A stretch of DNA of 38,440 nucleotides from Stramenopiles sp. TOSAG23-2 (taxonomy: Eukaryota): contig LT649317.1 in NCBI GenBank assembly GCA_900128395.1, positions 1 through 38,440 on the forward strand, in the 5' to 3' direction. The position numbers and the translations under genes are program-made. The notes beneath the pieces are model-generated. The model saw only the letters and a list, made by a program, of their open reading frames with translations, made no database searches and was not told where the DNA came from. This document shows, in pieces, positions 3,501-38,440 of the stretch; position 1 is the first letter of the stretch, and each line of letters opens with the position of its first letter.

Positions 3501-6500
3501 AAATTTTTCAGGCAATTGTTGTATGTTATTATCTTCGCAATAAAGATATCGTAAACTTTTCAATCCGCAGACTATTTCATTGATTTCAGTCAAACGATTA
3601 TTGGCAACATGTAATGTCACTATGGTTTTCAGTTCTTTTACATGATCTGGGATTGCAGTAAAATTGTTATTATTAATTCGCAATTCGGTCAAGCTTGTCA
3701 GAGCTAAAAATTCATGTGGAATGTCTGTCAATGATCTCCATTGCAAATCAAGTTTACCAGTTTGACTGGCAATTCTTGCAACTTCTTTAGTTTCGTCATC
3801 GAATCGTGGTTTGGGGATTACGACTTCGTCAAATAAACCTCGTTTTGAAAGGCCTACATTTGGGGGGCGTCCTCCATGCTTCTTTCTCCATTCTTCTTCT
3901 TTCAGATGATATTGATATGCTGGTATTCCACCTTTTTCAAACAACCATCTTAATTTATCATCAACAGCATTCCCACCAAGCATCAAATCGGTTAATGACG
4001 TTAAATACATCATAGTATATGGTAATTCTTCTATTCTATTTGCTTGAAGCCAAACCCGATTTAAATTGGTTAACTGGCCAAAACATTCTGGAATTTCTGT
4101 AATTCGATTTCGATCTATTTTAAGACATGTTAATGCCGTCATTTGATTAATATATTTTGGTAAATGATGTATATAATTATTTGACATAATTAATGTATGA
4201 AGCCTTGTCAATTTGCAAAATGACCATGGCATTAATTCAATTTTATTATTTTGCGCCCATAGTTCTTCTAATAGAACACATTGCCCGATTGTTTCCGGTA
4301 AATCGCGGAGGAGAAGATTTTCTAAGGACAAAAACATTAAATTTTGTAATACGAAATTATCTAACGACTTTGGCATTTTCGCTGATTTTCGCCGGGATAG
4401 ATTATTATAATAAAATGATTTGCCGTTCCTGCTATCAAATTGTATTTCCCACACAGTTTGCCGTTCCCGAATCAATTTTTGATAAGGTGTTAACGATGCG
4501 AGATCCGTTGATGTGGGTACCTCTGGTAATCGTGCTATAACTTCATCAGTATCAACATGCCTGTAACCAATGCATTCCTCATTTTCGCCTGAGCCGATTA
4601 AAATCGGTTCCCAAAGGCGCAGTTCATCTTCTGTTGGTGGAGGTGGCAATTTTCTTGGCACATGCATCAATGCCAACGTAGCGACAGGATTAAAACCTAA
4701 ATGTAATTGTGCCAGGTTTTTCAATTCTGGTATAGTATCAGGCATTCGCATTAAATTATTCTGCTTTAAATAAATTTCTTCTAATTGGTGTAATTTTGCT
4801 ATTGAATTTGGTAACTCATTTAATTTATTATTTGTTAAATCGATAATTTCTAAACGTGTCAAACGTCCAATATCCCATGGCAATTCAGTAAGATAATTAT
4901 GTGGGAGATACAATTCTTCTAATGCTGTTAATATGCCGATATTATCTGGCAAAGCAGTTAATTTATTACTTCCTAAATGCAACTCGGTTAAATTTGGGAA
5001 ACTTCGAGTGAACCACGTATCTAATTTACTAATTTTATTGCCAGTTAATCTCATAATCCTTAATCCTGCTATTTGAAACCCTAGTGTCGTTACGAAACTT
5101 TTTGGAATCTTTGTTATATTCATCCATAACATTTCAACTTCTCCATTGTTTCCCATGGATTTATGAAATGCACGTTTAAATAATTCTTCTTCCGTCATGT
5201 CATCCATGTCTTTTTGTTTTTTTCCTCCTGAAGATGAATTTAAACGCTCTATTTTGTTTTTCATTATATCCGTACCTAATGTCCCCCAGCCTTTAACTTT
5301 GTCTTTTGCCCATTTTAAATCTACAATATCTTTCTCCCACGTTTCAAAGTCTCTTATTGATTGTTCAACCTGTAAATCTGCTTGCGCAACAATCGTTTGT
5401 CTTGCAATCATGTGTGAACTAAGTTCCTTTGCAGATTCTGCATACGTTATAGCGTGGCCTGCTCTGCCATCATGTGCTACTGTGTATGGCCTTTTCTTAG
5501 CTGCTTGCTTTAACAATGCTTCTACATCTATTTTATCTTTATCAATTTTAACACCTTTTAGTGGAACAGGTTTTTGTAATGGTATTCGGCCTAACTTTGT
5601 TGTTTTTGGTCGAGTCATTGGTGCTCTTTTATCTGGTGTTGCCGGTGCTGTTTGTTTTGCAGCTTGTTTTGGATATGGAACAGTTCCTCTAACATCTATT
5701 AACCATGGATGTTCTGCATTCATTTTCTGTTCTAAAGATCTATTAGCGGACGTTTTTGGTCGATTTTTTTCTTCCTCTTTTGTTAATGGACGTTTTGGAT
5801 ATGGGGTAATTGGTGGTTTCAGACTAGGATCAAAATTTTCATACACAAGTCTCGATGGGTCGTTTAATTTTCTAATAGTCTCAGCCGTATAAGGCCTTTC
5901 TTCTTCTTCTACATGGTATATAGTTGGTTCATTGTTGTATTCTTTTCCCTCATCCTCATCTTCTTCTTCTTCCTTTTCAACAATAATTCCGCCACCACCA
6001 TCAACATTATTTGATGGTGTAGTTATTGGTCTACCAAAATTATTATATGATGTATCTGACGTAGTAGGTCTTGACATATTCCCGGCAATGTATGTATCTG
6101 ACGTCATGGGACGACCACCAACATAGGTATCGGATGTTGTAGGTCTACCACCATATATATCAAAAACATCCGATGTCATTGGTCTGTAATTACTATCAGA
6201 TGTCATTGGTCTAAATGTTGTTGCTGTAGATAATGGTCTACCATACATATCCGTCATAACATCGGCAGTTAATGGTCTACCATATATATCTGTCATTCTT
6301 GAACTGGGTCTACTAGTAGAAAAATTTGTTGCTCCTGTAAGTGGTCGTAGACTGGAATTACTGGTAGTCATTCCAGTACCAGGACGAGACGATGCCGTGC
6401 CAGGTTTTTCACTCATATACCATTTTGTCCATTCTTCAGCTGCACCAACTAATCCAGGTTTTTTAATTATTGCACCACCATATGGCCCGTATGTTTTCTC

Positions 6501-6782
6501 CGGCTTTTTTGCATTTTGCCTATGATGCTTTTCAGCGAGAAGAGTATTAGATAAAGTTGCTGCATTTCTATTTTTATCTTTCCGTATCAGTCGCTTCAAT
6601 TCATTAACGCTTTTTTGTGCTTCCTTTGGTTTCCCAGGTGGAGCTGGCATGACATATTTATTTTTCATTTTTTTTACAGGGGATGTTGGTGGTAAATTTG
6701 ACGTAGTAGACGATGACGAGGGTAGCATTTTCTCTTCTTTATCATGTTTTTCTACTTCTTCTTGATCGTTTGAGTGTTGCAT
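555..6782 (-). CDS. Giant leucine-rich-repeat protein (2075 aa) with N-terminal RPx[S/T] repeats, WW-like, Tudor-like and PDZ-like modules and a C-terminal coiled coil
   Basis: Uninterrupted ORF. Many LxxLxLxxNxLxxLP repeats (LTELHLGSNKLTALP, LEELYLPHNYLTELP, LQHLDLCRNKLKKIP). WW-like WEIQFDSRNGKSFYYN, Tudor-like GTISTVNTDGTYDVVFDD, PDZ-like FSPGSIGITF...GVLIH. Confidence 0.85.
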   Translation of the reverse strand: MQHSNDQEEVEKHDKEEKMLPSSSSTTSNLPPTSPVKKMKNKYVMPAPPGKPKEAQKSVNELKRLIRKDKNRNAATLSNTLLAEKHHRQNAKKPEKTYGPYGGAIIKKPGLVGAAEEWTKWYMSEKPGTASSRPGTGMTTSNSSLRPLTGATNFSTSRPSSRMTDIYGRPLTADVMTDMYGRPLSTATTFRPMTSDSNYRPMTSDVFDIYGGRPTTSDTYVGGRPMTSDTYIAGNMSRPTTSDTSYNNFGRPITTPSNNVDGGGGIIVEKEEEEDEDEGKEYNNEPTIYHVEEEERPYTAETIRKLNDPSRLVYENFDPSLKPPITPYPKRPLTKEEEKNRPKTSANRSLEQKMNAEHPWLIDVRGTVPYPKQAAKQTAPATPDKRAPMTRPKTTKLGRIPLQKPVPLKGVKIDKDKIDVEALLKQAAKKRPYTVAHDGRAGHAITYAESAKELSSHMIARQTIVAQADLQVEQSIRDFETWEKDIVDLKWAKDKVKGWGTLGTDIMKNKIERLNSSSGGKKQKDMDDMTEEELFKRAFHKSMGNNGEVEMLWMNITKIPKSFVTTLGFQIAGLRIMRLTGNKISKLDTWFTRSFPNLTELHLGSNKLTALPDNIGILTALEELYLPHNYLTELPWDIGRLTRLEIIDLTNNKLNELPNSIAKLHQLEEIYLKQNNLMRMPDTIPELKNLAQLHLGFNPVATLALMHVPRKLPPPPTEDELRLWEPILIGSGENEECIGYRHVDTDEVIARLPEVPTSTDLASLTPYQKLIRERQTVWEIQFDSRNGKSFYYNNLSRRKSAKMPKSLDNFVLQNLMFLSLENLLLRDLPETIGQCVLLEELWAQNNKIELMPWSFCKLTRLHTLIMSNNYIHHLPKYINQMTALTCLKIDRNRITEIPECFGQLTNLNRVWLQANRIEELPYTMMYLTSLTDLMLGGNAVDDKLRWLFEKGGIPAYQYHLKEEEWRKKHGGRPPNVGLSKRGLFDEVVIPKPRFDDETKEVARIASQTGKLDLQWRSLTDIPHEFLALTSLTELRINNNNFTAIPDHVKELKTIVTLHVANNRLTEINEIVCGLKSLRYLYCEDNNIQQLPEKFVHMFRLKELRICRNKISDLPERIGKCIGLEVLELELNRLVKLPQSITLCKNLRRLTLQFNNIRRLPVGFDQLVSLQHLDLCRNKLKKIPLDFARMPSLRNLYLSSNRIKSIDESFGQGALRSSLEKLWLQANRIVELPLSFQHLTALKQLMLGWNKTLISPPFELAIDVTGELNPNVNKKIQMCDWWWTDERIENLKLKPPIPRFKKGQSGWSKYHEGTISTVNTDGTYDVVFDDTSRARCVQKKCLQFLSHGVKPRKAFQADNKESCDVEVASGNGGLRAGRFDGEIHQEELERIDIRPPPGEGIYVGDRIRAKKPKFFAPVGFGTDSVREYCAVREWRLNDFRKAMKDRNVKFAHSRLTPKANNLLIDPLILSYLDKNDVSDIDSMADGYVNGPFPAGSNSADVVQGVIDLILLRAQQFHYKVLSALLNSIDKRRVERCEMPWGADGATMKCFIVRSTDFIDLKPEEYIAEFFSPGSIGITFKPIPGHDFGVLIHKTTGQAEEYDDGKIQEDHLLLKIGRGQNVSGEQLWADATTMTKIQIEKMVGRMKRPAKLRIRATLSMPYSMDQLLLAIRDYEGPYGKVAEKLKVWRRPFGPIPGQAKKKSGSEEEEKQEEMPPNSSDSDNDGNNDNDDDDDAKKKKKKKKKKKKKKKKNGNKKTNDWVIIQEVIYSPKEAKRLSQEYKYIKSSLARVEKDIEAYLRSIAGKLKLYNEVNNRMKKIEESQITVEEEFLKILKTFQKTEGKYEDIKTRVNHFENGGSYNLHKFRSKEEAYKRLNTLREKYEREKVDFENIEKARNVTQEQGTWNNKEWTKRTKEDLFNKYKIDKAKTIQLRYRIRAEKEEKRRPWDEGYENWRENRIRKKRRKEYDEKIARLDAKRKGIAYVSLDSSDDEESVWSTEEEVEAKGELDFLKKKAKAALFSKFKGLIDTVASGVKKVKDSFNKTYKALNAYSWDPFDPTIHGQGEWDGKLEVDTLDEK

Positions 6783-7424
6783 GTTATATGCGTTTCTTAT
6801 TTTGGGTATGATTATATATATTTACAGTAGAATCATTGATGCCATTTTTATTTGCTTGGTATCGCGTTTGTGTTTTCTATTTCATTTTGTATATCCATAT
6901 ATATATAAAAGTTAATTTACAAAAAAAGGACTAATTATTATTATTATATATGAGTAATAAATAATAATATATTATATTATAGTAACGGTTTGGTTTTTAT
7001 CATTATTTGTAATTAGAGTAATAGTAGTGTCTTTTCTTGGCTTCCAGAGGCTTTTCCTGGCTTCCGTCCAAATGAGAAAAAGGCTGTTGTCCAGGTTGTC
7101 CTGGTTGTCCGCATCGCACCATATTATATTGTTATACTAGTTAATACCTTATTTGTACTTTTATAATCCATAGTGATGTGATGCTGGCCGGGTATTAGTT
7201 TAGGCGGCAAATTGATGAAGAAACACAATTTTAACAATGATATACTGTGGAGTGCCAGAGTGCACGAGAGTGTGGAGTGGAGAGTGAGTGCTGGAGTGTG
7301 GTGGAAGAAAATAATCATCTCTTCTTATTATTATATAATAAAACTAAAAAAAAATAGCAAATACAAAATTCAAAAAAAAACGTTGCAGTGTGTGTATATA
7401 TAGAACAGGGTGTATGTAAATATA

Positions 7425-26954: not shown

Positions 26955-27196
26955 TTTTTTTTCCCAACATTCTTGTACGACACTTAAAGTCCGTTATAAG
27001 TAGCTGGTATATGTACACACACAACAGTACCATTTGGAACAAGGCAAATCGATCATTTCTAGAACCTTATTATATGTAACTACAACAATCAATATTCCAA
27101 TAAACTAAACTATAAAATAAATGTATATAAAATAAATATTAAATCAAACAATAAACATTAAAGGTCTATATATACGTAGCTAGTATACGAACCATC

Positions 27197-30100
27197 ATGT
27201 CAGATTCTAATAATAATAACAAGAAAAGTATTTCAATAGGAAAGAAGAAAGTCAATCCACTGCATAAATTGAAAACAGTCCGGGAGGAGGAAGAGGCGGA
27301 TACAATACAAGACCAGGTAAAAAATGATGCTTTTTTTAATAGTCTAGTAAATGAAATCCATGGAAACAATGTATATATTGCCGTCAACGCGGTATTAGAA
27401 GGCGAGATGAAAAATGAAAAAATACGTTTTATACAATCTTTAGGTCTTCCTGTAAGTGTTAAAATTTCTCCCGGAGTTGAATTGGATGAAAAATTTTGCC
27501 TTTCTACTAAAATGGCCCAATTTGATAAAGAGAAAATAAAATCATTGCAAGCAATTGGGGAAAATAATTTTGAAACAATGAAAGAAGAGGCAGTCAAACA
27601 AGCTAAAGCAAGTCCAGATCATTTTGTTCATGCTTCCATCATAGCACAGACGCTTCTATTGGAAAAACAATTTCCTTCAAAAGATAAGCTTGCTGCTGCA
27701 AAGGCTATTGGAAATTGGCATGTAGAACAGTTTGTAAAAACAATGGTTGGTTCTGATGTACAAGAAAAAGATATGGAAAAATATCGAAATGTTGTTCTTG
27801 AAGGTATTAGCGAAATGTTTCATTCTGGGGACAGTCTTAATTCATCGGGACAAGGTAATAATAATAATAGCAACAATACCAGCAACAATTTGAAGAACTC
27901 GTCGCTATCATCAACATCTCCACTTCCAGTAATATCATCTTCCTCTGCATTGCTAGATGATATATTAGAAATTAAATCAATACCAAAAAAATCTGCAAGT
28001 AATTCTATCTATGATCAAGTTTCTGGTGCGGCAATACTTATCCAATCAGTTTTCAAAGGTTATAAAGTTCGTAAAAGTATATCAAATTATCAATATAGAA
28101 AATCCAGTTTAATGTTACAAAAATGGTATAGACATACAAGATCTGGGCATGACGAAAGGGTATCGTTTCTTAAAACACGACGTGCTATTATCAAATTGCA
28201 AGCTTTGTTACGTGGGCGTAAAGTGCGTAAAGAAATAGAAATTAAAAATGATTTATTGTTGAATGAACAAATGATAGAATTATTTAATCATTTTCATAAT
28301 GCTGCTACACGAATTCAAGCTGTTATACGCGGTATAGTCATCCGCAAACGATTGCGTAAAGTGTTCGTTGCACAGCAACAAGTTAAAGCTGCGTTGTTAT
28401 ATCAAGCAAAACTACTTGGAGGCATAGTTCAATTTCAAGCTCGAGTTCGAGGATATTTGATGCGCGAATATAATAGAAAGTATAATGGCGAGATAAATCG
28501 TATGATGAAACTTCGTGTGGAATTAGAAGAAGAAGATGAAATTCTACAAGGTTTACACCGTTCTTTGGCATATTGGCATGAAGAGTCGGACCATGTAAAT
28601 GATATTGTAATCGATTTCATAACAAATAATCATTACACAAGAGCAGCAATTAAAATACAGCAACTATACCGAGATGTCAAATTACGAATTTATGCTGCGG
28701 GTATGATACAAAGTGTATGGAAAGGGTATGTAACTAGAAAACATCTTGCTTTTTGGAATGCGTATGCAACGACAATACAAAAGGTTGTAAGAGGAAGGCT
28801 GGGCAAATTGCGTTTTAAGCGTACCTTAGTATCTATGAAATTAAAAAAACGTGGAATGGCATTTCAATACTATGCAAAAAATGAAAAACAAGTTGTTATT
28901 GTACAAAACATTTATAGAAGATGGTCATGTATGAGAAATAACAAATTACTTTTGCTTATTGTTAAGGTTCAACGAACATTTCGTCGCTATCAATTTCAAA
29001 GGCAAGTTAAAACATTTATTAAAAAAGTTAGATTTGTTAAACATTTCTTAGGAATGTGTCTCATTCGAAGGAGATATCTTTCCTACAGACGCAAGATTAA
29101 AAGACGTCGTCAAGCTACAATAGTGTCATCACTGGCTCGTAAAATGTTTCAAAGAAAAAAATATTTAAACAAGCGGCAAAAAGTAATCTTAATGCAAACA
29201 TATTCAAGAAGAAAGCTGAGTTACAATCGTATAAAAAAAATGCATCGAGCGGCTACATATTTAAGTAGTTTATGGCGCTGCCATGTTATAATGGAACATT
29301 TTCAGCATCAAAAAAAAAATGCAGCTACTATCCAAAAGCAAATAAGAGGTTTTATAACGCGCATTCGCCTTTACAACAGTAAGGATTCAAAAAAAACGCA
29401 TGTTGTACAGCTTTTATATCGTCGCTTGGAAGAGGAGAAACAGCGTCCGCTGCAAGTACGAATAGATTCGGCAACAATGTTACAGTCGCATTTTCGCATG
29501 TATTTCCAACGAAATGTTTACAACTCCAAAAGAAGAAAATATATTATTATACAATCATTGGCGCGTCGTTTCCATACCTATTGCAAGATATTGCGAACAA
29601 ATCCTATTACAAAAAAAAGATATTTGTTTGATGGTACTTTTCCTGGAACGATACTCCGGAAAGGAAATGGTTCTATGACATTTGATATTTACCTTTTTGA
29701 TGGAACCTTGCTAAAAAACGTACCTCACAGGCGTATCTTGCCACTAACGCATGATAATGCTAAATTTAACGCAATAAGATTTTCTGTGGGTGATCACGTT
29801 GATGCATCGATGGAAAACGGTTTAGATAGATATCCGGGAACGATTACTAAAGCTTATCCGGGATCTGCTCATTATGACGTATTGTTTGAAGGTGATACAG
29901 TTTCAAAACAATACATACCAATAGAAAATATTTTTGCATCTTATGGACATGATGAAACTGCTGCGGAAGTCGAACACCTTCATTATAGCGTTCACGAAAG
30001 TGTTGAAACGACAAATGATCATTGGAAAACGGTTTCTCTAGCATACATTATAAATCCAAATCATAATGATGGTATAAAAAAACAAGCCAATGCTAAAGCA

Positions 30101-33100
30101 AGTAATCATCATAGAAAACATCGTCGACATCATGAAAAACACCAACATCATGATGAACAAAAACATCTTAAAAATAATAAACAAACGAAAAAAAATAGCA
30201 ACAACATCGTGAACACTACGAGAAAAGAACAAAAGTTTTATTCAATAAAAATGATAGGTTCCAAAGGAACTAGGGATAATGTTCCATATTATTCGCTTCG
30301 AAAGAGACACAAAGACTTCCAAGCTGGAATGTATGTTGAAGCATCATATAATAGTAATGCAATAAAAAATGGCAAAATAAATGAAGTTTACAAGCGTGGA
30401 CAAATTCTTTCTGTTGATAAAAAAACATCAACTTGCGAAGTTTTATTTAGGAAATTAAGTACAACCCCACGAACTGTGCCTTTTTCAAAAATTAGAACAT
30501 TAAGAGGTAAAGTTTACAAGAATGGTTTAAAAGTTAGAATCATTGACAAAGGGCAGAAAAGTCATCAGTCATCTTTTTTAGTGAATAAACTACATCGAAA
30601 TAATTTCTTGCCAACCCGAGGAGCAATAATTAAAAAAAGGGGTGAGCATTGTCAATTCTACAATGTTTCCTTTACAAACGGTAAACGTGAAAATACAACT
30701 GTCCACTTTTCATTAATTGTTCCAGTGCAAACACAACGGCAACAAATATTTGATATTGTGAGAGTAAATATGAGTGCAAATGGCTCTTTTACTCATAAAG
30801 AACTTTTGAACAAATATATTTGTGGTATTACGAAAAATAATGCAAAATTAGCACGGTTCCAAGCCCATGTACGAAGAAGGCGACAACGAAAAAAATACCA
30901 ATCTTTTTTAAACAAAGTAATTCTTTTACAAGCTACGGCAAGACGTAAAATTGTTGAAATAGAAGAGACAATAGTAAATAGAAAGGTAACCCAAATTCAA
31001 AAGCTTGTGCGAGCTCGGAATCAGCAAAAGGAGTATAAAAAAGTTCAAAAATTGGCAATGAAAATACAGTCTATAGTTCGATTATTTATAGCAAAAAAAC
31101 AATTTGTTCAAACACGGAACAAAGTGCGGAAAATTCAAGCCCACATGCGCGGAGTGGGGGGAAGAAATAATTTGATGAAAACCTTAGAAGTAAACGAGGG
31201 TCTTCCATGCATCATCGATTCGCAAATTAGTGACAATAATGAATATAATATTGAGTTAGAGGATGGAACATATATAACAAATGTGAAAGAAACATGTCTA
31301 ACTAAGCGTCCTAGGTACAACGAGGAGTGGTTAAAGGTTGGAACAAAGGTAGATGCAACTACTGATAACTGGGATAGTCATTTTGCTGCAATTATTGCAT
31401 CGGTTACTTGGGATTGGAAATACAACGTAGTATTTTGTGATCAAATTGCAAATAGTAAAAATATGGTGTTGTTGCAAAAAGATTCTGTACGAAAATTGGA
31501 TGATGGCGACGTAGACCTCCCACCTTATAAATGGAATACTGAGCTTGAAATGACAGATGATCGTTGGAAAAGCGTTTTCAGGGTTCGGGTGACTAAGAGT
31601 TTAAAAGGACAATGCTATAATGTTATCCGCCTGGATGGGGAACAGAAGGTAAAGTCGATAAATAATGTGAAACAGTGTTTCTTAAGAAAGCCATTTGTAC
31701 CTTCTGAGTTGCAACCAAATTCTGAAATTGAATATTACACGCCATTAAATAAAAAGAGGAAATACTCAATAGGAATTATTAAATCGATCAATAAGCGGTT
31801 TAAAACTTTCACCATTGTTGATCAACTTGACAAAAACTCTGAAAAGTGCATATCTTGGTCAAAAGTAAGACCAGTTCCAGTTAAAATATTTAAGTTGAAT
31901 ACAAACGTTACTATTCTTTCATCCCAAAAACAAGGAAAGATTTATTCAAGGAACAAATACTTGCAATACACAGTACAACTGCCGAATGGAAAATTTGTAT
32001 ATCGATTAACCGGCTATGAGATCTCTGAAGTTAAACCATTTCAAATTAATGAGAAATTGATGTATTTGCCGATGGAAGATCCATATAGACAAGGAAAAGC
32101 AAAAATGTCCATTGTTGAAATGGCAAGTCATCGTAAAAAAGGCAAAGAAAAGACAGCTGACATTGCAAAAAAAGCTGCAATGATACAATCCCTATTCCGT
32201 TCATTTAAGTGCAGGGTGCCGTATTTGAAAAAGTTGAAATTAATCATTTCAGTTCAAACCCAATTTAGACGGTTTGATGCTGAACGACAATATTATATAG
32301 CTCGCGGTTTAGTTTTTATGATACAAGCTAACTATCGCATGCTTGGTCCTCGAAAACAGTATAAAAAAATGCGTAACGCTGCTATTTGTATTCAATCTTT
32401 TATGCGTGGGAGATACATTCGGGAACAAGCTCGTATAATGGGTGTTTTGGCTTCAAAAATACAAAGACGATACAGAAAGCATTTAAAAAACCCTGGTAAA
32501 GAAGAGCTTGTAAAATCAAAACAAGCTTCATCAGTACGTTCGAACGTAAAATATCAATACAATAAACAGCGTATTAATATTCATCAATATAACGAGAAGG
32601 AACATATTGAAGCTGCTGTAACCATCCAAAAGTATATTAGAAGATTTCTTTGTGAAAATCTTTTTAAATTACGAAGGCAAAGCCATGAAGCGGCAATAAT
32701 AGTACAGCGGCGGGTGCGTGGATCATTGAGCAGAAAAGCGTTGTGGAAAGAGATTCCCCATACTCAAGATCATGAATACGATGGATATCTTCCAGGTACC
32801 ATCATTGGTTCAAATAAAGATGGTACTTTTAAAGTCGAATTTGATTTCGGTCAAATTTGCAACTCCATTAATCCATTTTCAATTAAAGAGGAAACAGTTA
32901 AGCATTTTCAAGAAGGTGATCGTTGTGAGGCGACGGAGGATGCATGGCAAAGTTATCTTACTAGTACTATTACAAATGTTTACCGTGGCAGTACATATGA
33001 AGGAGAGGAAACGTTTTACGATGTATTGTACGATGATGGTACAACTGGAACATCTATTCCAGAAACATATTTACGGCATGTGCCGAAGTTTCATCATAAA

Positions 33101-34921
33101 TTGAAACTAGGTGAATTTGTAGAAGTTACAAAAAGGCATTGGGAAGATCGCCAAGTTGGATATATATTAGATATAAATATACACAAGAAGTTGCCCAGAA
33201 CGTATCGTGTGAAGTTGAAAAACAAGGATGTAGATAATCGTATCTTAGATAATGTGGAGGAATATCAAATATGCCCATATTCTGATTTTGAAGATGGTTG
33301 CAGAGTTGAAGCAACTAGGCGTGAGTGGAATTATGCCTATTTTGAAGGAACAATTGTCAATATTGATCGTCATTTTGGAACATTTGGTATAAGTTTTGAT
33401 GATGGAGAATATTTCGAAAATACAGAATTGGTAGATGTACGGCGAAGACATTTCCATTTGTATAATGTTGGACATAATGTGTTGGTTAAATTTGACACTC
33501 GTTCAGAACCATTTTTAGGAATTATTAAATCTGTTACGAAGAGTAAATCTTATTATCATATAGAATTTAGTGAAACTGACAATGATGACAAATGTGTTGA
33601 AAAGATTCATGTCTCGGCCATTTTACATCGCGTAAGAAAGGATTGGAATAAATATGATCGTGTAGTAGCAAAACTTCCAGGTGCAGAATTAAGTTTTATG
33701 GATCAAGTAAGAATACATAAACAAAGTAAAGAACAAAAGGCTAAAAAAATGTATGCTATACTCTTAATCCAACGATGCGTAATGAGGTGGAAAGCTAGAC
33801 GTAAACGCAGAGTATTAGCTGAAAAGAAACGCGTTGAGCAAGAGAAATTACATTTGGAAACTGCTTCCATGTCTAAAATAAGTCTTCATGGCCTTGTAGA
33901 TGAAGATGGGGCAAGAACTACCAAGAATGCAGACATTTTCCATAAGAAGATTGAATCATATATTGAACAACGTGTAGAGAAAAATCTGGAAAGGCATTTA
34001 TCATCTTTGTCTCCCAATGATCGCGGTCAGTTTATAGAAAATGAAGAGGAATTGCACCATGAAGATGACTTTAGCAGAAAACTTGATTTCCAAATTAGGA
34101 AAAAGATTAAACAGCACATTGACAAGCGTCTTCTGTCCCCATCATCATCATCATCAAACAACATGATAAGTAATTATTCAAGACAAAATGAGATGAATAA
34201 TCATATACCTAATCTATTACATATTAATGATTTTGAAAAAGCTAATAGTGACAATGTTGACAGTTTATCAACAGTAACAACAACCACTGTTAATAATAAC
34301 ATGAACAATAACAATGGCCTTTTTCTAAGCTTTTCAATGGGAGATTCTGTGTTGGCAACACATTACGATTGGGATGAAAAGTATTATCCTGGAAATATTG
34401 CTGGTATAAACTCCGATGGAACATATTCTGTTCAATTTCTAGATGGAGATTATTCTTCTCAAGTTTTATTGAAACATATAAAAAGAGATGCAGGTTATCC
34501 TAATCACCGACAATTAAATATGCGCCAAAAAGCAAATAATAATACTATTGATAATGTAAGAAATCACCCACGGATGCAAAATATTTTAGAACATGAATTT
34601 AAGTATTTACCAGGTCATCCGGTATTGGCAACAAATTCTGATTGGGATAGCACGTATTTTCCTGGAAGGGTTGAAACAGTAAACGACGATGGTACATATG
34701 TAATTCATTTTTATGATGGACATGTTTCCAAGAATATCCATTTGAATCATATAAAAGATATACCATTTAAAAAAGACGATCGAGTCTTGGGAAAACAGAA
34801 TCATTGGGTCAAAATGCATCCTGGAACAATAGAACGTTTAAATAGTGATGGTACATACATTATTTTATTTGATGATGGAGATTCAAAAGATATCTTGTTG
34901 AAAAATATCGTGAAAATGTAA
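27197..34921 (+). CDS. Giant IQ-motif (calmodulin-binding) and Tudor/Agenet-like repeat protein (2574 aa)
   Basis: Many IQxxxRGxxxR motifs (IQSVFKGYKVRK, LQALLRGRKVRK, IQAVIRGIVIRK, IQSFMRGRYIR). These alternate with repeats such as GDSVLA...YYPGNIAGINSDGTYSVQFLDGD and YFPGRVETVNDDGTYVIHFYDG. Confidence 0.85.
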   Translation: MSDSNNNNKKSISIGKKKVNPLHKLKTVREEEEADTIQDQVKNDAFFNSLVNEIHGNNVYIAVNAVLEGEMKNEKIRFIQSLGLPVSVKISPGVELDEKFCLSTKMAQFDKEKIKSLQAIGENNFETMKEEAVKQAKASPDHFVHASIIAQTLLLEKQFPSKDKLAAAKAIGNWHVEQFVKTMVGSDVQEKDMEKYRNVVLEGISEMFHSGDSLNSSGQGNNNNSNNTSNNLKNSSLSSTSPLPVISSSSALLDDILEIKSIPKKSASNSIYDQVSGAAILIQSVFKGYKVRKSISNYQYRKSSLMLQKWYRHTRSGHDERVSFLKTRRAIIKLQALLRGRKVRKEIEIKNDLLLNEQMIELFNHFHNAATRIQAVIRGIVIRKRLRKVFVAQQQVKAALLYQAKLLGGIVQFQARVRGYLMREYNRKYNGEINRMMKLRVELEEEDEILQGLHRSLAYWHEESDHVNDIVIDFITNNHYTRAAIKIQQLYRDVKLRIYAAGMIQSVWKGYVTRKHLAFWNAYATTIQKVVRGRLGKLRFKRTLVSMKLKKRGMAFQYYAKNEKQVVIVQNIYRRWSCMRNNKLLLLIVKVQRTFRRYQFQRQVKTFIKKVRFVKHFLGMCLIRRRYLSYRRKIKRRRQATIVSSLARKMFQRKKYLNKRQKVILMQTYSRRKLSYNRIKKMHRAATYLSSLWRCHVIMEHFQHQKKNAATIQKQIRGFITRIRLYNSKDSKKTHVVQLLYRRLEEEKQRPLQVRIDSATMLQSHFRMYFQRNVYNSKRRKYIIIQSLARRFHTYCKILRTNPITKKRYLFDGTFPGTILRKGNGSMTFDIYLFDGTLLKNVPHRRILPLTHDNAKFNAIRFSVGDHVDASMENGLDRYPGTITKAYPGSAHYDVLFEGDTVSKQYIPIENIFASYGHDETAAEVEHLHYSVHESVETTNDHWKTVSLAYIINPNHNDGIKKQANAKASNHHRKHRRHHEKHQHHDEQKHLKNNKQTKKNSNNIVNTTRKEQKFYSIKMIGSKGTRDNVPYYSLRKRHKDFQAGMYVEASYNSNAIKNGKINEVYKRGQILSVDKKTSTCEVLFRKLSTTPRTVPFSKIRTLRGKVYKNGLKVRIIDKGQKSHQSSFLVNKLHRNNFLPTRGAIIKKRGEHCQFYNVSFTNGKRENTTVHFSLIVPVQTQRQQIFDIVRVNMSANGSFTHKELLNKYICGITKNNAKLARFQAHVRRRRQRKKYQSFLNKVILLQATARRKIVEIEETIVNRKVTQIQKLVRARNQQKEYKKVQKLAMKIQSIVRLFIAKKQFVQTRNKVRKIQAHMRGVGGRNNLMKTLEVNEGLPCIIDSQISDNNEYNIELEDGTYITNVKETCLTKRPRYNEEWLKVGTKVDATTDNWDSHFAAIIASVTWDWKYNVVFCDQIANSKNMVLLQKDSVRKLDDGDVDLPPYKWNTELEMTDDRWKSVFRVRVTKSLKGQCYNVIRLDGEQKVKSINNVKQCFLRKPFVPSELQPNSEIEYYTPLNKKRKYSIGIIKSINKRFKTFTIVDQLDKNSEKCISWSKVRPVPVKIFKLNTNVTILSSQKQGKIYSRNKYLQYTVQLPNGKFVYRLTGYEISEVKPFQINEKLMYLPMEDPYRQGKAKMSIVEMASHRKKGKEKTADIAKKAAMIQSLFRSFKCRVPYLKKLKLIISVQTQFRRFDAERQYYIARGLVFMIQANYRMLGPRKQYKKMRNAAICIQSFMRGRYIREQARIMGVLASKIQRRYRKHLKNPGKEELVKSKQASSVRSNVKYQYNKQRINIHQYNEKEHIEAAVTIQKYIRRFLCENLFKLRRQSHEAAIIVQRRVRGSLSRKALWKEIPHTQDHEYDGYLPGTIIGSNKDGTFKVEFDFGQICNSINPFSIKEETVKHFQEGDRCEATEDAWQSYLTSTITNVYRGSTYEGEETFYDVLYDDGTTGTSIPETYLRHVPKFHHKLKLGEFVEVTKRHWEDRQVGYILDINIHKKLPRTYRVKLKNKDVDNRILDNVEEYQICPYSDFEDGCRVEATRREWNYAYFEGTIVNIDRHFGTFGISFDDGEYFENTELVDVRRRHFHLYNVGHNVLVKFDTRSEPFLGIIKSVTKSKSYYHIEFSETDNDDKCVEKIHVSAILHRVRKDWNKYDRVVAKLPGAELSFMDQVRIHKQSKEQKAKKMYAILLIQRCVMRWKARRKRRVLAEKKRVEQEKLHLETASMSKISLHGLVDEDGARTTKNADIFHKKIESYIEQRVEKNLERHLSSLSPNDRGQFIENEEELHHEDDFSRKLDFQIRKKIKQHIDKRLLSPSSSSSNNMISNYSRQNEMNNHIPNLLHINDFEKANSDNVDSLSTVTTTTVNNNMNNNNGLFLSFSMGDSVLATHYDWDEKYYPGNIAGINSDGTYSVQFLDGDYSSQVLLKHIKRDAGYPNHRQLNMRQKANNNTIDNVRNHPRMQNILEHEFKYLPGHPVLATNSDWDSTYFPGRVETVNDDGTYVIHFYDGHVSKNIHLNHIKDIPFKKDDRVLGKQNHWVKMHPGTIERLNSDGTYIILFDDGDSKDILLKNIVKM

Positions 34922-35916: not shown

Positions 35917-35994
35917 TGGATTCAATCTTACTGGTACGACTGTTGCGGCATCAACTACAATTACATTTGAGTTATTATTATTGAACGATGCCAT
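35041..35994 (-). CDS. Nudix hydrolase
   Basis: WKLPGGSKDDGETIEETARRELSEEF fits the Nudix box GX5EX7REUXEE. Start placed at the first ATG (35994) rather than the GTG at 36006. Confidence 0.85.
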
Positions 35995-36863
35995 GGGTAT
36001 AAACACTGTGTACTATAAATTAGATAAATGATAATAACGGAAGTATGACTATATATAAATTCTATACAGCGTATTGTATATCTAATTGTAATAAATATAT
36101 TACTGTATCAAATATACACGTATTGATATATCTAAGAAGAATAAGAAGTGGACAAGTGTGACCTTCTAACCTGGAACTTTGAAACTTTGAAATTTTTTTT
36201 GGCACTATACTCTAACTTGCCAGCCCAGCCAGCTGCTTGATGCATCTTGTGCTCTTCTTTGATGTGGTAAATAAAATTGATGAAAAAATATCCTTTAAGT
36301 ACAGTATAACAATACGATTATATTCTATCTATAGTGCTGTGTACCTCCTATATCCTATATCCCACATTCCCGATATGATTATTTTTACATGAAGACGACT
36401 ACTATACTAATACGAAGATGTGCATATACTGGCATACTTTTTTTTTTGATTTTTTATTTTTTCCAAAAAACTTTTAAGCAGCACTTACTTTACTTACAGT
36501 AAAACTTATTAAAAAAATTCTCTTATTAAACTAAAGTATCTTAGAATTAACAAAAATTATATGCTGAAGAAAAGTGAAAATAGTTTTTCCTGCATCATAT
36601 TAGAGAGTCATTTAATATGTGTCCTTTTTATGTTTATGTACAAGGAATAATATAAATAAAATAGGTTATCGAAAAATCTTAAAGAATTTACATCATACGA
36701 CAAAAAAAACGGGATTTTTAACCTTTTGATTAAACATTTTTTTACCACTGGGCCACACTACTCGTCGCACAGTGGTGCCACACCGATGGGAAATTTTAAT
36801 TTAAATAAAAAGTTTCCGTTTTTGTCCTTTTTTTAATATAAAAGATGGATGTTTTTTGTTAAT

Positions 36864-36976
36864 ACATATATTATATATAAGATATCTCAAGTCATAAATT
36901 TTGATTTTTAATGTTTATTTTGTTTTTTATTTTTCGGTTTAAATCAATTGACTGTCATTTAATTTTGTGTATATGT
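36864..36976 (-). promoter_or_regulatory. Candidate SECIS element in the 3' UTR of the GST gene
   Basis: Minus strand reads ATGA-C-AGTCA-A-TTGATTT-AAA...AAATCAA-AATTTA-TGACT-TGAG. This gives an AUGA/GA core (36958-36955; 36889-36886), a ~13-nt helix II and apical AAA. ACATATA/TATATGT could form helix I. The apical loop is unusually long and helix II has an asymmetric bulge. Confidence 0.55.
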
Positions 36977-37158
36977 TTCATGGTCTGTATCTATTTTATT
37001 ATCTTGTGTTTTTTTTTTACTTTGTTATTATTATGAAATTTACACTTTTTATCTTTATATTTTTTTGTTTTCAGGGTCATCTTCTTTTTTATTTTATTAT
37101 TAATTTGTATACTTTTTTTTTGTTATTGTTCTGTGTGTGTGGAGACACATTTTTTTCA

Positions 37159-38229
37159 TTAACGTGCAAATGTTAACCATTGTTGTAATCGTTCTAATTT
37201 TGATAAATGCATTTCAACAAATGCTTTAGGTGGTTCACTTAATGATGCAATACTTGGACTTGTCAATGCTAAACTTTCACGGTCACGCACTGCTTCTAAC
37301 CACACAAATAATTTCATTAAATTTAATGATCGGCAATCCTCAAAAATATCAATACTACGATGAAATGGTAAATTAGCTAACATGCGGACTACAAATGGCG
37401 CTGTTAAACATTCAGCTAATGTAAAATTATATCCGATAAAAAATGGGCCACCATCCTCGCAACCATGCATACGTAAACAATTATCAACTTTTACAAGTGC
37501 ATGTAGAAATTTCTCATAATGCTTCTTTAATTCGGTTTTTTTTTTAGCTTTCATTAATCGATAATAACCTGGAACAACATTACCCATATATAAATCAACA
37601 AATAAATCAATACGAGCAGCACTTAAAGCTTCTCTAGCATGTACGTCGCCTAAAAGACCAGGCCATGCTGGCAATAAATCTGACCCGCGATAAGGCCATG
37701 CCTTCGCGACGTATTTTGTACACACAGAGGATTCGACTAACTGTACATAATCTTTCTCCCCTGGAAATCCTACTTCTAATATTGGCACTTTCGCACTAGC
37801 TTGATGATCTGGATGAATTGTTTTATACATTATTTTAAATTCTTCAGATTTTTTTGATAAATCAACGGTTCGGCTTGTAAACGGTAATTGTTTTTCAACC
37901 ATAGCAATCCAAGGCCGTTGAGACCAAGGTCAGTCTGATGCCCCGTTCTCCGTCATGGCATTGTTCCAAAAAGTGATAGGCGGGCCGTCGTACGATATTG
38001 ATATTTCATAATCACCAGCATGTATATGATCATCAAAATGGTGCGCTTGTGGATTAATCTCGTTAACGTTATTATTATATGGTAAAAATTGTTGTTGTTG
38101 TTGTTGTTGTTGTTGTGGATTTGGTTGTTGAAATTTTTGTCCTTCATTCATCATGTCGTTTCTATTATTACTGATACTGCTACTGTTTGACGTAGTATTT
38201 GGTGATGGAATGTACAAGGATGATGACAT
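37159..38229 (-). CDS. Omega/lambda/DHAR-like glutathione S-transferase, probable selenoprotein (356 aa, in-frame UGA at codon 100)
   Basis: The two listed ORFs are joined in frame by TGA(37932-37930)-CCT TGG TCT CAA CGG CCT TGG ATT GCT-ATG, giving SD[U]PWSQRPWIAMVEK. Other GST motifs are intact: KVPIL cis-Pro loop, LVESSVCTKYV, GPFFIGYNFTLAE...APFVVR. Confidence 0.8.
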
Positions 38230-38440
38230 GAGGGAAAAGAAAAAACCTGTTTTAAAAGAATGCGTTTATCATACAGTATATCTATGTTTGTATATGTTTC
38301 TCGTAATTACATAACAAAGTGAACAATTTGTTTTCTGTTATTATTCTATAGAGAATAGAGAATTTAAATTTTAGACGGAAAGAAGACACTATGGATGAAA
38401 TACGCCTCTTATTTTAGCTAAAATCGGTCATGTTTTTTTG

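What the first reader, a model, noticed from the sequence alone, without database searches (positions are those of the whole stretch)
37159..38229. Hidden selenoprotein: UGA at the catalytic Cys of an omega/lambda/DHAR-class GST
Seen: the 99-aa and 247-aa ORFs share one frame, separated by one TGA plus nine sense codons, reading TFWNNAMTENGASD*PWSQRPWIAMVEKQLPF. No AG dinucleotide lies between the TGA and the downstream ATG, so canonical splicing cannot remove the TGA while keeping the PWSQR motif. The rest of the gene has no lesions. Established: Cys-GSTs (omega, lambda, DHAR, CLIC) carry an active-site CP[FYW][SA]QR motif at this position, and Sec/Cys alignment at a redox site is the hallmark of selenoproteins. 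Inference: the UGA is decoded as selenocysteine, giving a UPWSQR seleno-GST or thioltransferase with an N/Q-rich N-terminal extension. Standard gene callers would truncate it and lose the active site. GST-like selenoproteins have been reported in some marine microbes and algae, so the novelty of this lineage needs checking.
Basis: partly seen in the sequence, partly recalled or inferred. Interest (0 to 1): 0.9.

Follow-up and report, generated by a model that had tools for sequence, protein, structure and literature searches.

The report
Likely selenocysteine GST, marine protist
A glutathione-transferase gene of an uncultured marine eukaryote has a conserved, transcribed TGA exactly where its relatives have the catalytic cysteine, so it most likely encodes a selenoprotein that public gene callers cut in two, although no standard selenocysteine-insertion RNA signal could be found.

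Summary
On the minus strand, a 99-codon ORF and a 247-codon ORF share one frame, separated by TGA (37932-37930) and nine sense codons. Read through, they give a 356-aa omega/DHAR/TDR1-like GST. The TGA sits on the catalytic Cys column, at the N-cap of helix alpha1.

The TGA is not an error or a recent lesion. Three independent DNA assemblies and RNA-library contigs from four studies carry it, unspliced. Diverged relatives have upstream ORFs ending at the same ...NGASD. One relative was called with W there, so its codon is TGA; its frame continues into PWSQRPWIAL and it has no Met at position 110. A second lineage (36-44% identity) shows the same signs. 71 other homologues have Cys.

Weak points: Rfam finds no SECIS, and my scans of the whole mRNA found only one weak AUGA...AAA...GA candidate, which would probably fail SECISearch3 filters. 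No genome is held, so the Sec machinery is untested.

Sec-containing GSTs are already reported in algae and marine metagenomes, so this is a new member of a known kind. I put Sec decoding at about 0.72. The distal 3'UTR is as conserved as the CDS and remains unexplained.

The parts
37159..38229 (-). Full recoded coding sequence, 356 codons plus TAA, with TGA read as Sec at codon 100.
   Evidence: Start Met and the first residues (MSSSLYIPSP) resemble the start of relative P0171 (MSNSLYVPSP). An RNA-library contig reaches 38261.
37933..38229 (-). N-terminal part, codons 1-99. Residues 1-70 are an N/Q/S-rich segment modelled with low confidence (pLDDT <50 for 1-35 and 47-70). Residues 85-91 (ITFWNNA) form strand beta1 of the thioredoxin-like domain.
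   Evidence: AF2 model. Homology to Cys forms P0019/P0023 extends upstream of the TGA. Length differences between strains are in-frame CAA units of 3 and 6 nt.
37930..37932 (-). In-frame TGA at the catalytic Cys column (U100).
   Evidence: Identical in the window, L001 and L002. No other letter at these places in the RNA-library contigs of 4 runs. W at this column in P0171, P0054 and P0074.
37903..37929 (-). Nine sense codons, PWSQRPWIA, the start of helix alpha1 carrying the P-[FYW]-[SA]-Q-R motif.
   Evidence: 0 of 30 columns vary among the three assemblies over 37932-37903. PWSQRPWIAL is kept in P0171.
37159..37902 (-). The 247-codon ORF that public gene callers report. It covers the rest of the N-domain (VP149, ES166-167 of the glutathione site) and the helical C-domain.
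   Evidence: P149, E166 and S167 are invariant in 47 sequences.
36828..37158 (-). 3'UTR, at least this long. RNA-library contigs of two other runs reach 36752 and 36689.
   Evidence: X16 record 5 spans 36827-38177 in one piece. X16 and X20 contigs stop at 36827/36828, at the end of a genomic A7 run, which is a weak hint of a poly(A) site.
36864..36976 (-). Only SECIS-like candidate, and a weak one. Elements: AUGA 36958-36955; helix II AGUCA/UGACU plus UUGAUUU/AAAUCAA; AAA at 36940-36938 opening a 33-nt A-rich loop; GA 36888-36887; possible helix I ACAUAUA (36976-36970) / UAUAUGU (36870-36864).
   Evidence: Duplex energy -7.1 kcal/mol and whole constrained fold -5.1 kcal/mol. 1 of 76 columns varies, in the loop. 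No Rfam match.
36745..36800 (-). GC-rich block, identical in the three assemblies, in the distal 3'UTR or just beyond it. It folds as a hairpin without a GA/AG kink-turn. Role unknown.
   Evidence: 0 of 56 columns vary; single copy in the window; z -1.87.

Best explanation
The gene encodes one 356-residue Cys-GST-type enzyme (omega/DHAR/TDR1-like thiol transferase or reductase). Its catalytic residue is encoded by UGA and is most likely selenocysteine (U100, motif U-P-W-S-Q-R).

Shown:
- The fold, the position of the UGA at the N-cap of helix alpha1, and the glutathione-site residues.
- The UGA in three DNA assemblies and in RNA-library contigs.
- The same stop kept in diverged relatives, with coding conservation on both sides.

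Inferred:
- Ribosomes insert Sec at the UGA, directed by an element in the conserved distal 3'UTR. That element is either the weak AU-rich AUGA...AAA...GA candidate or one not recognisable with present models.
- The selenolate attacks a disulfide, dehydroascorbate or S-glutathionylated substrate and forms a Se-S bond with glutathione, which a second glutathione resolves, as the Cys forms of the class do.
For: Placement of the TGA:
- phmmer puts the TGA on the catalytic Cys of TDR1, GSTO3C and DHARs. Pfam finds GST_N_2 and GST_C_5.
- The AF2 model (pLDDT 83.7) has beta1 at 85-91, upstream of the TGA, and alpha1 at 101-112, just after it. Best Foldseek matches are GST Omega, DHAR, TDR1 and CLIC1.

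The TGA is real:
- It is identical in the window, L001 and L002, which are 97.3% and 95.0% identical to the window overall.
- In 4 of 4 RNA-library runs from 4 studies, a contig bridges the TGA with no other letter there. No joint lies anywhere in the coding sequence.

Both sides are coding:
- The only indels upstream are 3 and 6 nt of CAA. In residues 50-99 the only change is synonymous.
- The upstream part is homologous to Cys forms P0019/P0023.

The stop is kept across lineages:
- Upstream ORFs P0172, P0123 and P0173 all end ...NGASD.
- P0171 reads NGASD-W-PWSQRPWIALVEKELPF. This means a TGA called as Trp, the frame kept, and Met110 replaced by Leu. Gene model P0006, from a relative of about 90% identity, starts only at Met134.
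- In a second lineage at 36-44% identity, P0054 has W at the column, P0027 starts just after it, and model P0178 lacks the stretch around it.

Homologues and code:
- Of 169 other proteins compared, 71 have Cys at the column, 2 have W, and 40 start within about 25 residues after it; 8 of those 40 are this gene's own near-identical forms.
- TGA ends 2 of 14 long ORFs in the window. Frames of 2,088 and 2,588 codons run without any TGA.

Literature and 3'UTR:
- Sec-containing GSTs are reported in algae (PMC7539508, passages and section 5), in Aureococcus (PMC5917014, passages) and in marine metagenomes (PMC2398784, one table passage).
- The distal 3'UTR is conserved like the CDS: 3 of 132 and 0 of 56 variable columns, against 15 of 130 in the proximal UTR.
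Against: - Rfam gives no SECIS match at E<=10 in any of four searches. These include 521-nt and 121-nt windows, where matches of 12-17 bits to other families were reported.
- My constrained-fold scans of the whole mRNA and 600 nt beyond it found no stable UGA...GA hairpin.
- The single candidate is weak. It has a 6-nt versus 1-nt asymmetry in helix II and a 33-nt loop. Its 3' core is UGAG where the published consensus is KGAW, and its total energy is -5.1 kcal/mol. One RNA-library contig lacks 10 nt of its putative helix I strand.
- My scan criteria were set after I had seen the candidate.
- Sec machinery is untested.
- That W stands for TGA in P0171, P0054 and P0074 is an inference about the callers, because their DNA could not be fetched.
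- All RNA evidence comes from Logan contigs, which show neither strand nor level and can include DNA.
Confidence: 0.72

Rival explanations
1. The UGA is read through without selenium. A near-cognate or suppressor tRNA inserts Cys, Trp or Arg at some frequency, giving a full-length GST with an ordinary residue or a low-yield enzyme.
For: All the conservation evidence shows only that the UGA is translated, not which residue is inserted. No canonical SECIS was found.
Against: A stop kept for this long exactly on a redox-active Cys column, while 71 homologues use Cys, is the known signature of Sec; this rests on established knowledge of selenoproteins. Sec-GSTs already exist in marine eukaryotes. 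The context UGA-CCU is not the readthrough context I recall (UGA-CUAG; recalled, not tested). If Cys were wanted, one base change to TGC or TGT would give it.
Confidence: 0.1
2. TGA terminates translation. The locus makes a 99-aa peptide and, from Met110, a truncated non-catalytic GST-like protein, as the public gene calls have it.
For: This is how all the public calls found here read it: P0002 cluster with 45 members, P0172 with 30 members. An ATG lies 9 codons after the TGA.
Against: Met110 is Leu in P0171, and the gene model of a close relative starts only at Met134. The nine codons between the TGA and the ATG keep the PWSQR motif and do not vary. A protein starting at Met110 would lack strand beta1 and most of helix alpha1 of the thioredoxin fold. 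The upstream part is homologous to the N-termini of Cys forms.
Confidence: 0.06
3. The organism uses a variant nuclear code in which TGA is a sense codon (Trp or Cys).
For: Three predicted proteins carry W at the column.
Against: TGA ends 2 of 14 long ORFs, with only 2 and 14 further codons before the next TAA or TAG. Frames of 2,088 and 2,588 codons have no TGA, whereas the 14 ORFs use 112 TGG and 122 TGT/TGC. Within this gene, Trp is TGG and Cys is TGT or TGC everywhere else.
Confidence: 0.03
4. The gene is a pseudogene with a nonsense mutation, or the TGA is an assembly error.
For: There is a single in-frame stop, and no SECIS was found.
Against: Three independent assemblies and contigs of four RNA libraries carry the TGA. 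The same stop place occurs in diverged lineages with both flanks intact. Changes in the conserved parts are mostly synonymous: 6 synonymous and 2 non-synonymous in codons 50-356.
Confidence: 0.02

Closest known systems
'GST' selenoprotein family of algae (Jiang et al. 2020, PMC7539508) and the GST selenoprotein of Aureococcus anophagefferens (PMC5917014)
   Same: A GST-fold protein with Sec in a marine unicellular eukaryote. The family exists mostly as Cys or other homologues; the paper states that nearly 90% of algal genomes have only those. The split found here is similar: 71 Cys forms against a minority of TGA-type forms.
   Different: Whether they belong to the same GST class (omega/DHAR-like, U-P-W-S-Q-R) is therefore unknown. 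Here no canonical SECIS was found, and the organism is an unidentified AT-rich (27-39% GC), intron-poor eukaryote.
Cys-GSTs: omega class (Trametes GSTO 1C/2C/3C, 6HJS/6SR8/6SRB), plant DHAR (5EVO, 7F8S, 5D9V), Leishmania TDR1 (4AGS), CLIC1
   Same: The fold (Foldseek E 1e-11 to 1e-9). The catalytic position at the N-cap of alpha1, followed by P-[FYW]-x-Q-R. The glutathione-site residues Val-Pro149 and Glu166-Ser167 are invariant.
   Different: TGA replaces the Cys codon. There is an N/Q/S-rich N-terminal extension of about 70 residues, modelled with low confidence. A roughly 10-residue insertion (GLLGDVHARE, about residues 191-200) is absent from the nearest Cys forms. Sequence identity to solved structures is only 17-23%. 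The assignment to one class (omega, DHAR or lambda) is not resolved.
Sec-containing GST (COG0625) of the Global Ocean Sampling metagenome (Zhang & Gladyshev 2008, PMC2398784)
   Same: A GST with Sec in marine microbes, found by TGA/Cys pairing (one table passage seen).
   Different: I did not read how that paper assigns its GST entries to organisms. By recall, not from a call, it is a survey of mostly prokaryotic sequences, where the SECIS lies in the coding sequence just after the UGA. Here the gene is eukaryotic, and the local fold around the UGA is no better than shuffles (z -0.28).

Membership tests
Cys-GST group of the GST superfamily (omega / DHAR / lambda / CLIC / TDR1) | Thioredoxin-like N-domain plus all-helical C-domain | tested here: met
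   Pfam GST_N_2 1.6e-8 and GST_C_5 5.7e-7, both above their cut-offs. AF2 model pLDDT 83.7, pTM 0.78. Foldseek top matches are GST Omega, DHAR, TDR1 and CLIC1.
Cys-GST group of the GST superfamily (omega / DHAR / lambda / CLIC / TDR1) | Catalytic Cys at the N-terminus of helix alpha1 in a C-P-[FYW]-[SA]-Q-R-like motif | tested here: inconclusive
   The motif P-W-S-Q-R is present and the column aligns with the Cys of 4AGS, 6SRB and 5EVO. However, the codon is TGA, not Cys, and which residue is inserted was not shown. 71 homologues have Cys.
Cys-GST group of the GST superfamily (omega / DHAR / lambda / CLIC / TDR1) | Glutathione-site residues: cis-Pro after Val at the start of beta3, and Glu-Ser before alpha3 | tested here: met
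   P149, E166 and S167 are invariant, and V148 is 90% or more conserved, in the 47-sequence alignment. Their roles are assigned from recalled knowledge of GST structures.
Cys-GST group of the GST superfamily (omega / DHAR / lambda / CLIC / TDR1) | Assignment to one class (omega, DHAR or lambda) | tested here: inconclusive
   Omega, DHAR, TDR1 and CLIC chains score alike (E 1e-11 to 4e-9, identity 17-23%). No tree was built.
Eukaryotic selenoproteins | In-frame UGA aligned with Cys of homologues, with conservation on both sides | tested here: met
Eukaryotic selenoproteins | UGA kept in orthologues of other lineages | tested here: met
   Upstream ORFs of three lineages end at ...NGASD. P0171 has W there with the frame kept. 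A second lineage shows it too (P0054, P0027, P0178).
Eukaryotic selenoproteins | SECIS element (kink-turn core UGAN/KGAW, helix II, unpaired AA in the apical loop) in the 3'UTR | tested here: inconclusive
   No Rfam match. There is one weak candidate at 36976-36864 with AUGA, AAA and GA in place, but with poor energy, strong asymmetry, a long loop and UGAG in place of KGAW. The SECISearch3 paper says non-metazoan SECIS elements are the hardest to predict and that some lineages have their own features (passages).
Eukaryotic selenoproteins | Sec machinery in the genome (tRNA-Sec, EFSec, SBP2, SecS, PSTK, SPS2) | not testable with these tools
   No genome is held for the window. The records behind L002 are not held either. 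No tRNA is found in the window.
Eukaryotic selenoproteins | Selenium in the protein | not testable with these tools
   This needs labelling or mass spectrometry.
Algal 'GST' selenoprotein family (PMC7539508) | Sequence relatedness to published members, and the same Sec position | not tested
   No published member sequence was available. Supplements and the database could not be read.

The most novel reading that the evidence does not exclude
The UGA is decoded through a 3'UTR signal that is not a canonical kink-turn SECIS. The distal 3'UTR (about 37008-36745) is as conserved between strains as the coding sequence, yet it holds no stable UGAN/KGAW hairpin. It contains only a very AU-rich AUGA...AAA...GA arrangement with a 33-nt loop and, about 90 nt further on, an invariant GC-rich hairpin. 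If Sec, or another residue, is inserted here, this lineage would have a strongly divergent or new kind of recoding element.
Probability: 0.15. Interest if true: 0.8.

Novelty: new member of a known kind. Interest (0 to 1): 0.42.

Why it matters
The gene is split or truncated in every public call found here: the 247-aa form has 45 member sequences and the 97-aa form has 30. One eukaryotic gene model starts at Met134, and one in a second lineage skips the site altogether. Annotations of these widespread marine protists therefore lose the active site of a redox enzyme. They also undercount selenium use in a group for which my literature searches turned up no selenoproteome paper.

The 20 runs that hold the stretch come from 12 studies; most are labelled marine or seawater metagenome, and 2 rows may be the source sample. 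The failure to find a standard SECIS in an otherwise convincing case makes this a useful test for SECIS models outside animals and algae.

Tried and rejected
- **Rfam.** Four searches around the gene and one over L001 and L003 gave no SECIS. The only matches were chance-level hits to unrelated families.
- **First SECIS scripts.** One found nothing because it allowed no bulges. Another did not enforce its constraints. I discarded both.
- **Other AUGA sites in or beyond the 3'UTR.**
  - The AUGA overlapping the stop codon (37162-37159) is AUAA in L002.
  - The AUGAs at 36695 and 36610 lie at or beyond the last RNA contig and carry indels between strains.
  - Hairpins inside the CDS are multi-branched and not SECIS-like.
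- **GC-rich block 36800-36745 as a SECIS.** It has no GA on either stem strand, so I rejected it.
- **GC-rich block as a tRNA or tRNA-Sec gene.** ARAGORN finds nothing down to 80% thresholds. At 60-70% it gives two conflicting calls (Arg with intron, or Tyr) over 36699-36800. At most this is a tRNA-like relic.
- **Local hairpin around the UGA.** It folds no better than shuffles (z -0.28).
- **Searches for relatives' DNA.**
  - The viral-contig scan found no relative.
  - The metagenome scan gave only two close loci. The other 78 loci are 22-36% identical GSTs and I did not use them.
  - L003 is cut before the active site and has only 77 nt after its stop.
- **Earlier notes of this scan.** Nothing was found.
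- **Lineage.** It was not determined. Pfam on the neighbouring genes and one Atlas look-up say only that it is a eukaryote. Literature searches for accession prefixes found nothing.
- **RNA contig cover.** In all four RNA runs there is no cover over 35985-36664 and 38280-38364.
- **X16 joints at 36933-37105.** They have 20-22-letter sides in an A-rich stretch with very high depth, and I take them for other organisms' low-complexity reads.
Full report
**The observation.**
On the minus strand, the ORF listing gives a 99-aa ORF (38229..37930, stop included) and a 247-aa ORF (37902..37159). They share one frame. Between them lie TGA (37932-37930) and nine sense codons. Reading TGA as U gives a 356-residue protein with no other stop...ITFWNNAMTENGASD-U-PWSQRPWIAMVEKQLPF.... 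The 27 bases between the TGA and the ATG contain no AG.

**What the protein is.**
- Pfam finds GST_N_2 (residues 100-176, 1.6e-8) and GST_C_5 (206-305, 5.7e-7), both above their cut-offs.
- phmmer against PDB sequences finds Leishmania TDR1 (4AGS, 1.2e-7), Trametes GST Omega 3C (6SRB, 3.9e-7) and several plant DHARs. The printed alignments put the TGA column on their catalytic Cys: SATCPFCHR, CPYVQRSW, GDCPFSQR.
- An AlphaFold2 model built on 47 sequences has mean pLDDT 83.7 and pTM 0.78. Strand beta1 is at residues 85-91, upstream of the TGA. Helix alpha1 is at 101-112, starting directly after it. Residues 1-35 and 47-70 have pLDDT below 50.
- Foldseek's best PDB matches are GST Omega 1C/2C/3C, DHARs, TDR1 and CLIC1 (E 1e-11 to 4e-9, identity 17-23%).
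- P149, E166 and S167 are invariant in the 47-sequence alignment. From recalled GST structures, these are the cis-Pro and Glu-Ser of the glutathione site.
- A protein starting at Met110 would lack beta1 and most of alpha1.

**Is the TGA real?**
- The metagenome scan returned two close loci from other assemblies, L001 and L002. They are 97.3% and 95.0% identical to the window over about 1.9 kb. Both carry the TGA, and none of the 30 columns over 37932-37903 varies.
- Upstream of the TGA, the only length differences are 3 and 6 bases of a CAA run, so they are in frame. In codons 50-99 the only change is synonymous. In codons 101-356 there are 5 synonymous and 2 non-synonymous changes.
- 20 public runs from 12 studies hold the stretch, and 6 are on record as RNA.
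- I laid four RNA runs from four studies. In each, one Logan contig bridges the TGA: X12 37108-38079, X16 36827-38177, X18 37847-38155, X20 37763-38079. No other letter is listed at 37930-37932, and no joint lies in the coding sequence.
- These are contigs from RNA libraries. They show neither strand nor level and could include DNA.

**Relatives.**
- In the 5.8-billion-protein collection, the only hits of near-full length were the 247-aa truncated form (P0002, 45 member sequences), a 281-aa Cys form (P0003, 42% identity) and P0004, which starts just after the site. P0003's cluster-mate P0019 is an MMETSP transcript.
- The Cys forms read ...IPYSGSKIRFWHSNQTFNKASTCPWAQRAEIALVEKQIPF..., so homology runs across the TGA.
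- The exhaustive representative search gave 442 hits at E<=0.001. I compared the query with all 169 other proteins held at that point:

| Category | Count |
|---|---|
| Cys at the column | 71 |
| W at the column | 2 |
| A, T or a gap at the column | 1 each |
| Start within about 25 residues after the column | 40 (8 are this gene's own near-identical forms) |
| Start later | 32 |
| Unaligned residues upstream | 19 |
| End before the column | 2 |

- A search for short proteins over residues 48-125 was decisive.
  - P0172 (the L002 form), P0123 and P0173 are upstream ORFs of three different sequences, and all end at ...NGASD.
  - P0171 (184 aa, 81% identical over the region) reads ...NGASD-W-PWSQRPWIALVEKELPF....
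- A W exactly there is what a caller using a TGA=Trp table would print, so I infer that the codon is TGA in that lineage too. The frame and the PWSQR motif are kept. Met110 is Leu there, so the "second ORF" has no start at that place.
- The gene model of a relative of about 90% identity (P0006) starts only at Met134.
- A second lineage at 36-44% identity shows the same pattern. P0054 has GKSK-W-PWAHRAW. P0027 (23 cluster members) starts just after. Model P0178 jumps from GKSK to AKVPIIE, as a predictor would to avoid an in-frame stop.
- I could not fetch any of this DNA.

**Genetic code.**
- TGA ends 2 of 14 long ORFs of the window, with 14 and 2 further codons before the next TAA or TAG.
- Frames of 2,088 and 2,588 codons contain no TGA.
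- The 14 ORFs use 112 TGG and 122 TGT/TGC. Their lack of internal TGA follows from how they were defined.
- A general TGA=Trp or TGA=Cys code is therefore unlikely.

**The SECIS problem.**
- Rfam found no SECIS at gathering thresholds over the window, nor at E<=10 over 2,941, 521 or 121 bases. In the 521-base search, unrelated families were listed at 12-17 bits, so a SECIS_1 match of that size would have been shown.
- My constrained folds over every UGA/GGA...GA pair from 37175 to 36050 found nothing stable inside the transcript. Every UGA...GA pair over the whole mRNA also gave nothing SECIS-like.
- A duplex-based scan found one candidate:
  - AUGA at 36958-36955.
  - Helix II of 5 + 7 pairs (AGUCA/UGACU and UUGAUUU/AAAUCAA).
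  - AAA 14 nt after the core.
  - GA at 36888-36887.
- This candidate is also the best helix when any GA...GA pair is allowed.
- 3 of 400 dinucleotide shuffles of the UTR do as well, and the window's two strands hold 8 such sites in 76,880 nt, or 0.05 per 480 nt. The criteria were set after I had seen the candidate.
- Against the candidate:
  - Helix II has a 6-nt versus 1-nt asymmetry.
  - The loop is 33 nt of mostly A.
  - The 3' core is UGAG, where the SECISearch3 paper gives KGAW.
  - The whole constrained fold is -5.1 kcal/mol, against an unconstrained -7.8.
  - One RNA-library contig lacks 10 nt of the putative helix I strand.
- The passages I read of the SECISearch3 paper list too much bending, loop length and energy as reasons to discard a candidate. 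They also say that non-metazoan SECIS elements are the hardest to predict. I therefore count the SECIS as not found, which lowers but does not overturn the Sec reading.

**A conserved distal 3'UTR.**
Variable columns among the three assemblies:

| Region | Variable columns |
|---|---|
| Proximal UTR, 37158-37030 | 15 of 130 |
| Around the candidate, 36989-36860 | 3 of 132 |
| GC-rich block, 36800-36745 | 0 of 56 |
| 36744-36600 | 36 of 155 |
| ORF2, for comparison | 8 of 741 |

Something in about 37008-36745 is under constraint. The GC-rich block folds into a hairpin (z -1.87 to -2.47) with no GA/AG core. It is single-copy in the window. It contains TGGCCCAGTGG, which matches the tRNA A-box as I recall it. 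ARAGORN calls a tRNA there only at 60-70% thresholds, and inconsistently.

**Comparison with what is known.**
- GST is one of the 42 selenoprotein families of algae. It is found in the Sec form in a minority of genomes and is reported in Mamiellales and E. huxleyi (PMC7539508, passages and section 5).
- Aureococcus has a GST selenoprotein (PMC5917014, passages).
- The GOS metagenome had 12 Sec-GST sequences (PMC2398784, one table passage).
- I could not see the sequences or the Sec position of any of these, because supplements are closed.
- This gene therefore works like, and most likely is, a Sec form of a Cys-GST, which makes it a new member of a known kind.

**Verdict.**
- Recoding of the UGA is well supported.
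- Selenocysteine is the most likely residue (about 0.72).
- The SECIS and the Sec machinery remain open.
- The lineage was not determined beyond "eukaryote".

Noticed in passing
window 36699-36800 (minus strand): A GC-rich block in an otherwise A-rich stretch, identical in all three assemblies. It holds two direct copies of GTGTGGC-CCA-TG. One copy fits the tRNA A-box as I recall it (TGGCCCAGTGG). It is followed by GGTTAAAAATCC and a T8 run. ARAGORN calls a tRNA here only at 60-70% thresholds, with conflicting identities. It could be a tRNA-derived relic, a small RNA gene or a 3'-end element.
   Followed up: partly
window 37008-36745: The distal 3'UTR is about as conserved between strains as the coding sequence (about 0-3% variable columns). 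The proximal 3'UTR varies at about 11% of columns and the sequence beyond 36744 at 23-36%.
   Followed up: partly
window 38118-38111: The CAA (polyQ) run in the N-terminal extension differs in length between assemblies by 3 and 6 nt, giving 9, 8 and 7 Gln.
   Followed up: yes
window 36827-36835: Contigs of two poly(A)/oligo-dT RNA libraries from different studies stop at 36827/36828, at the end of a genomic A7 run. Contigs of two other libraries run on to 36752 and 36689. There may be two poly(A) sites, or the shorter ends may come from internal priming.
   Followed up: no
L002 about 4170-4300, against window about 36520-36450: L002 stops resembling the window about 640 nt downstream of the GST stop codon, while L001 continues to match. 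This may be a structural difference between strains.
   Followed up: no
window 555-6821 (-), 27155-34921 (+), and other ORFs: The window is gene-dense, with very long uninterrupted ORFs. One is a 2,088-aa leucine-rich-repeat protein and another a 2,588-aa protein with IQ, Tudor and Agenet domains. Others are BRCT proteins, an ATG27-like protein, a C-type lectin plus acyltransferase-3 protein, and CRAL-TRIO, ADH-like and NUDIX proteins. GC content is 27-39%.
   Followed up: partly
protein P0178 (relative, not in the window): A public eukaryotic gene model of a second lineage lacks the 47 residues around the catalytic column that P0054 has. This looks like an artificial intron drawn to avoid an in-frame stop.
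   Followed up: partly
window residues 191-200 of the protein (about 37659-37630): An insertion of about 10 residues (GLLGDVHARE), between the two GST domains, is present in this clade and absent from the nearest Cys-form homologues.
   Followed up: no
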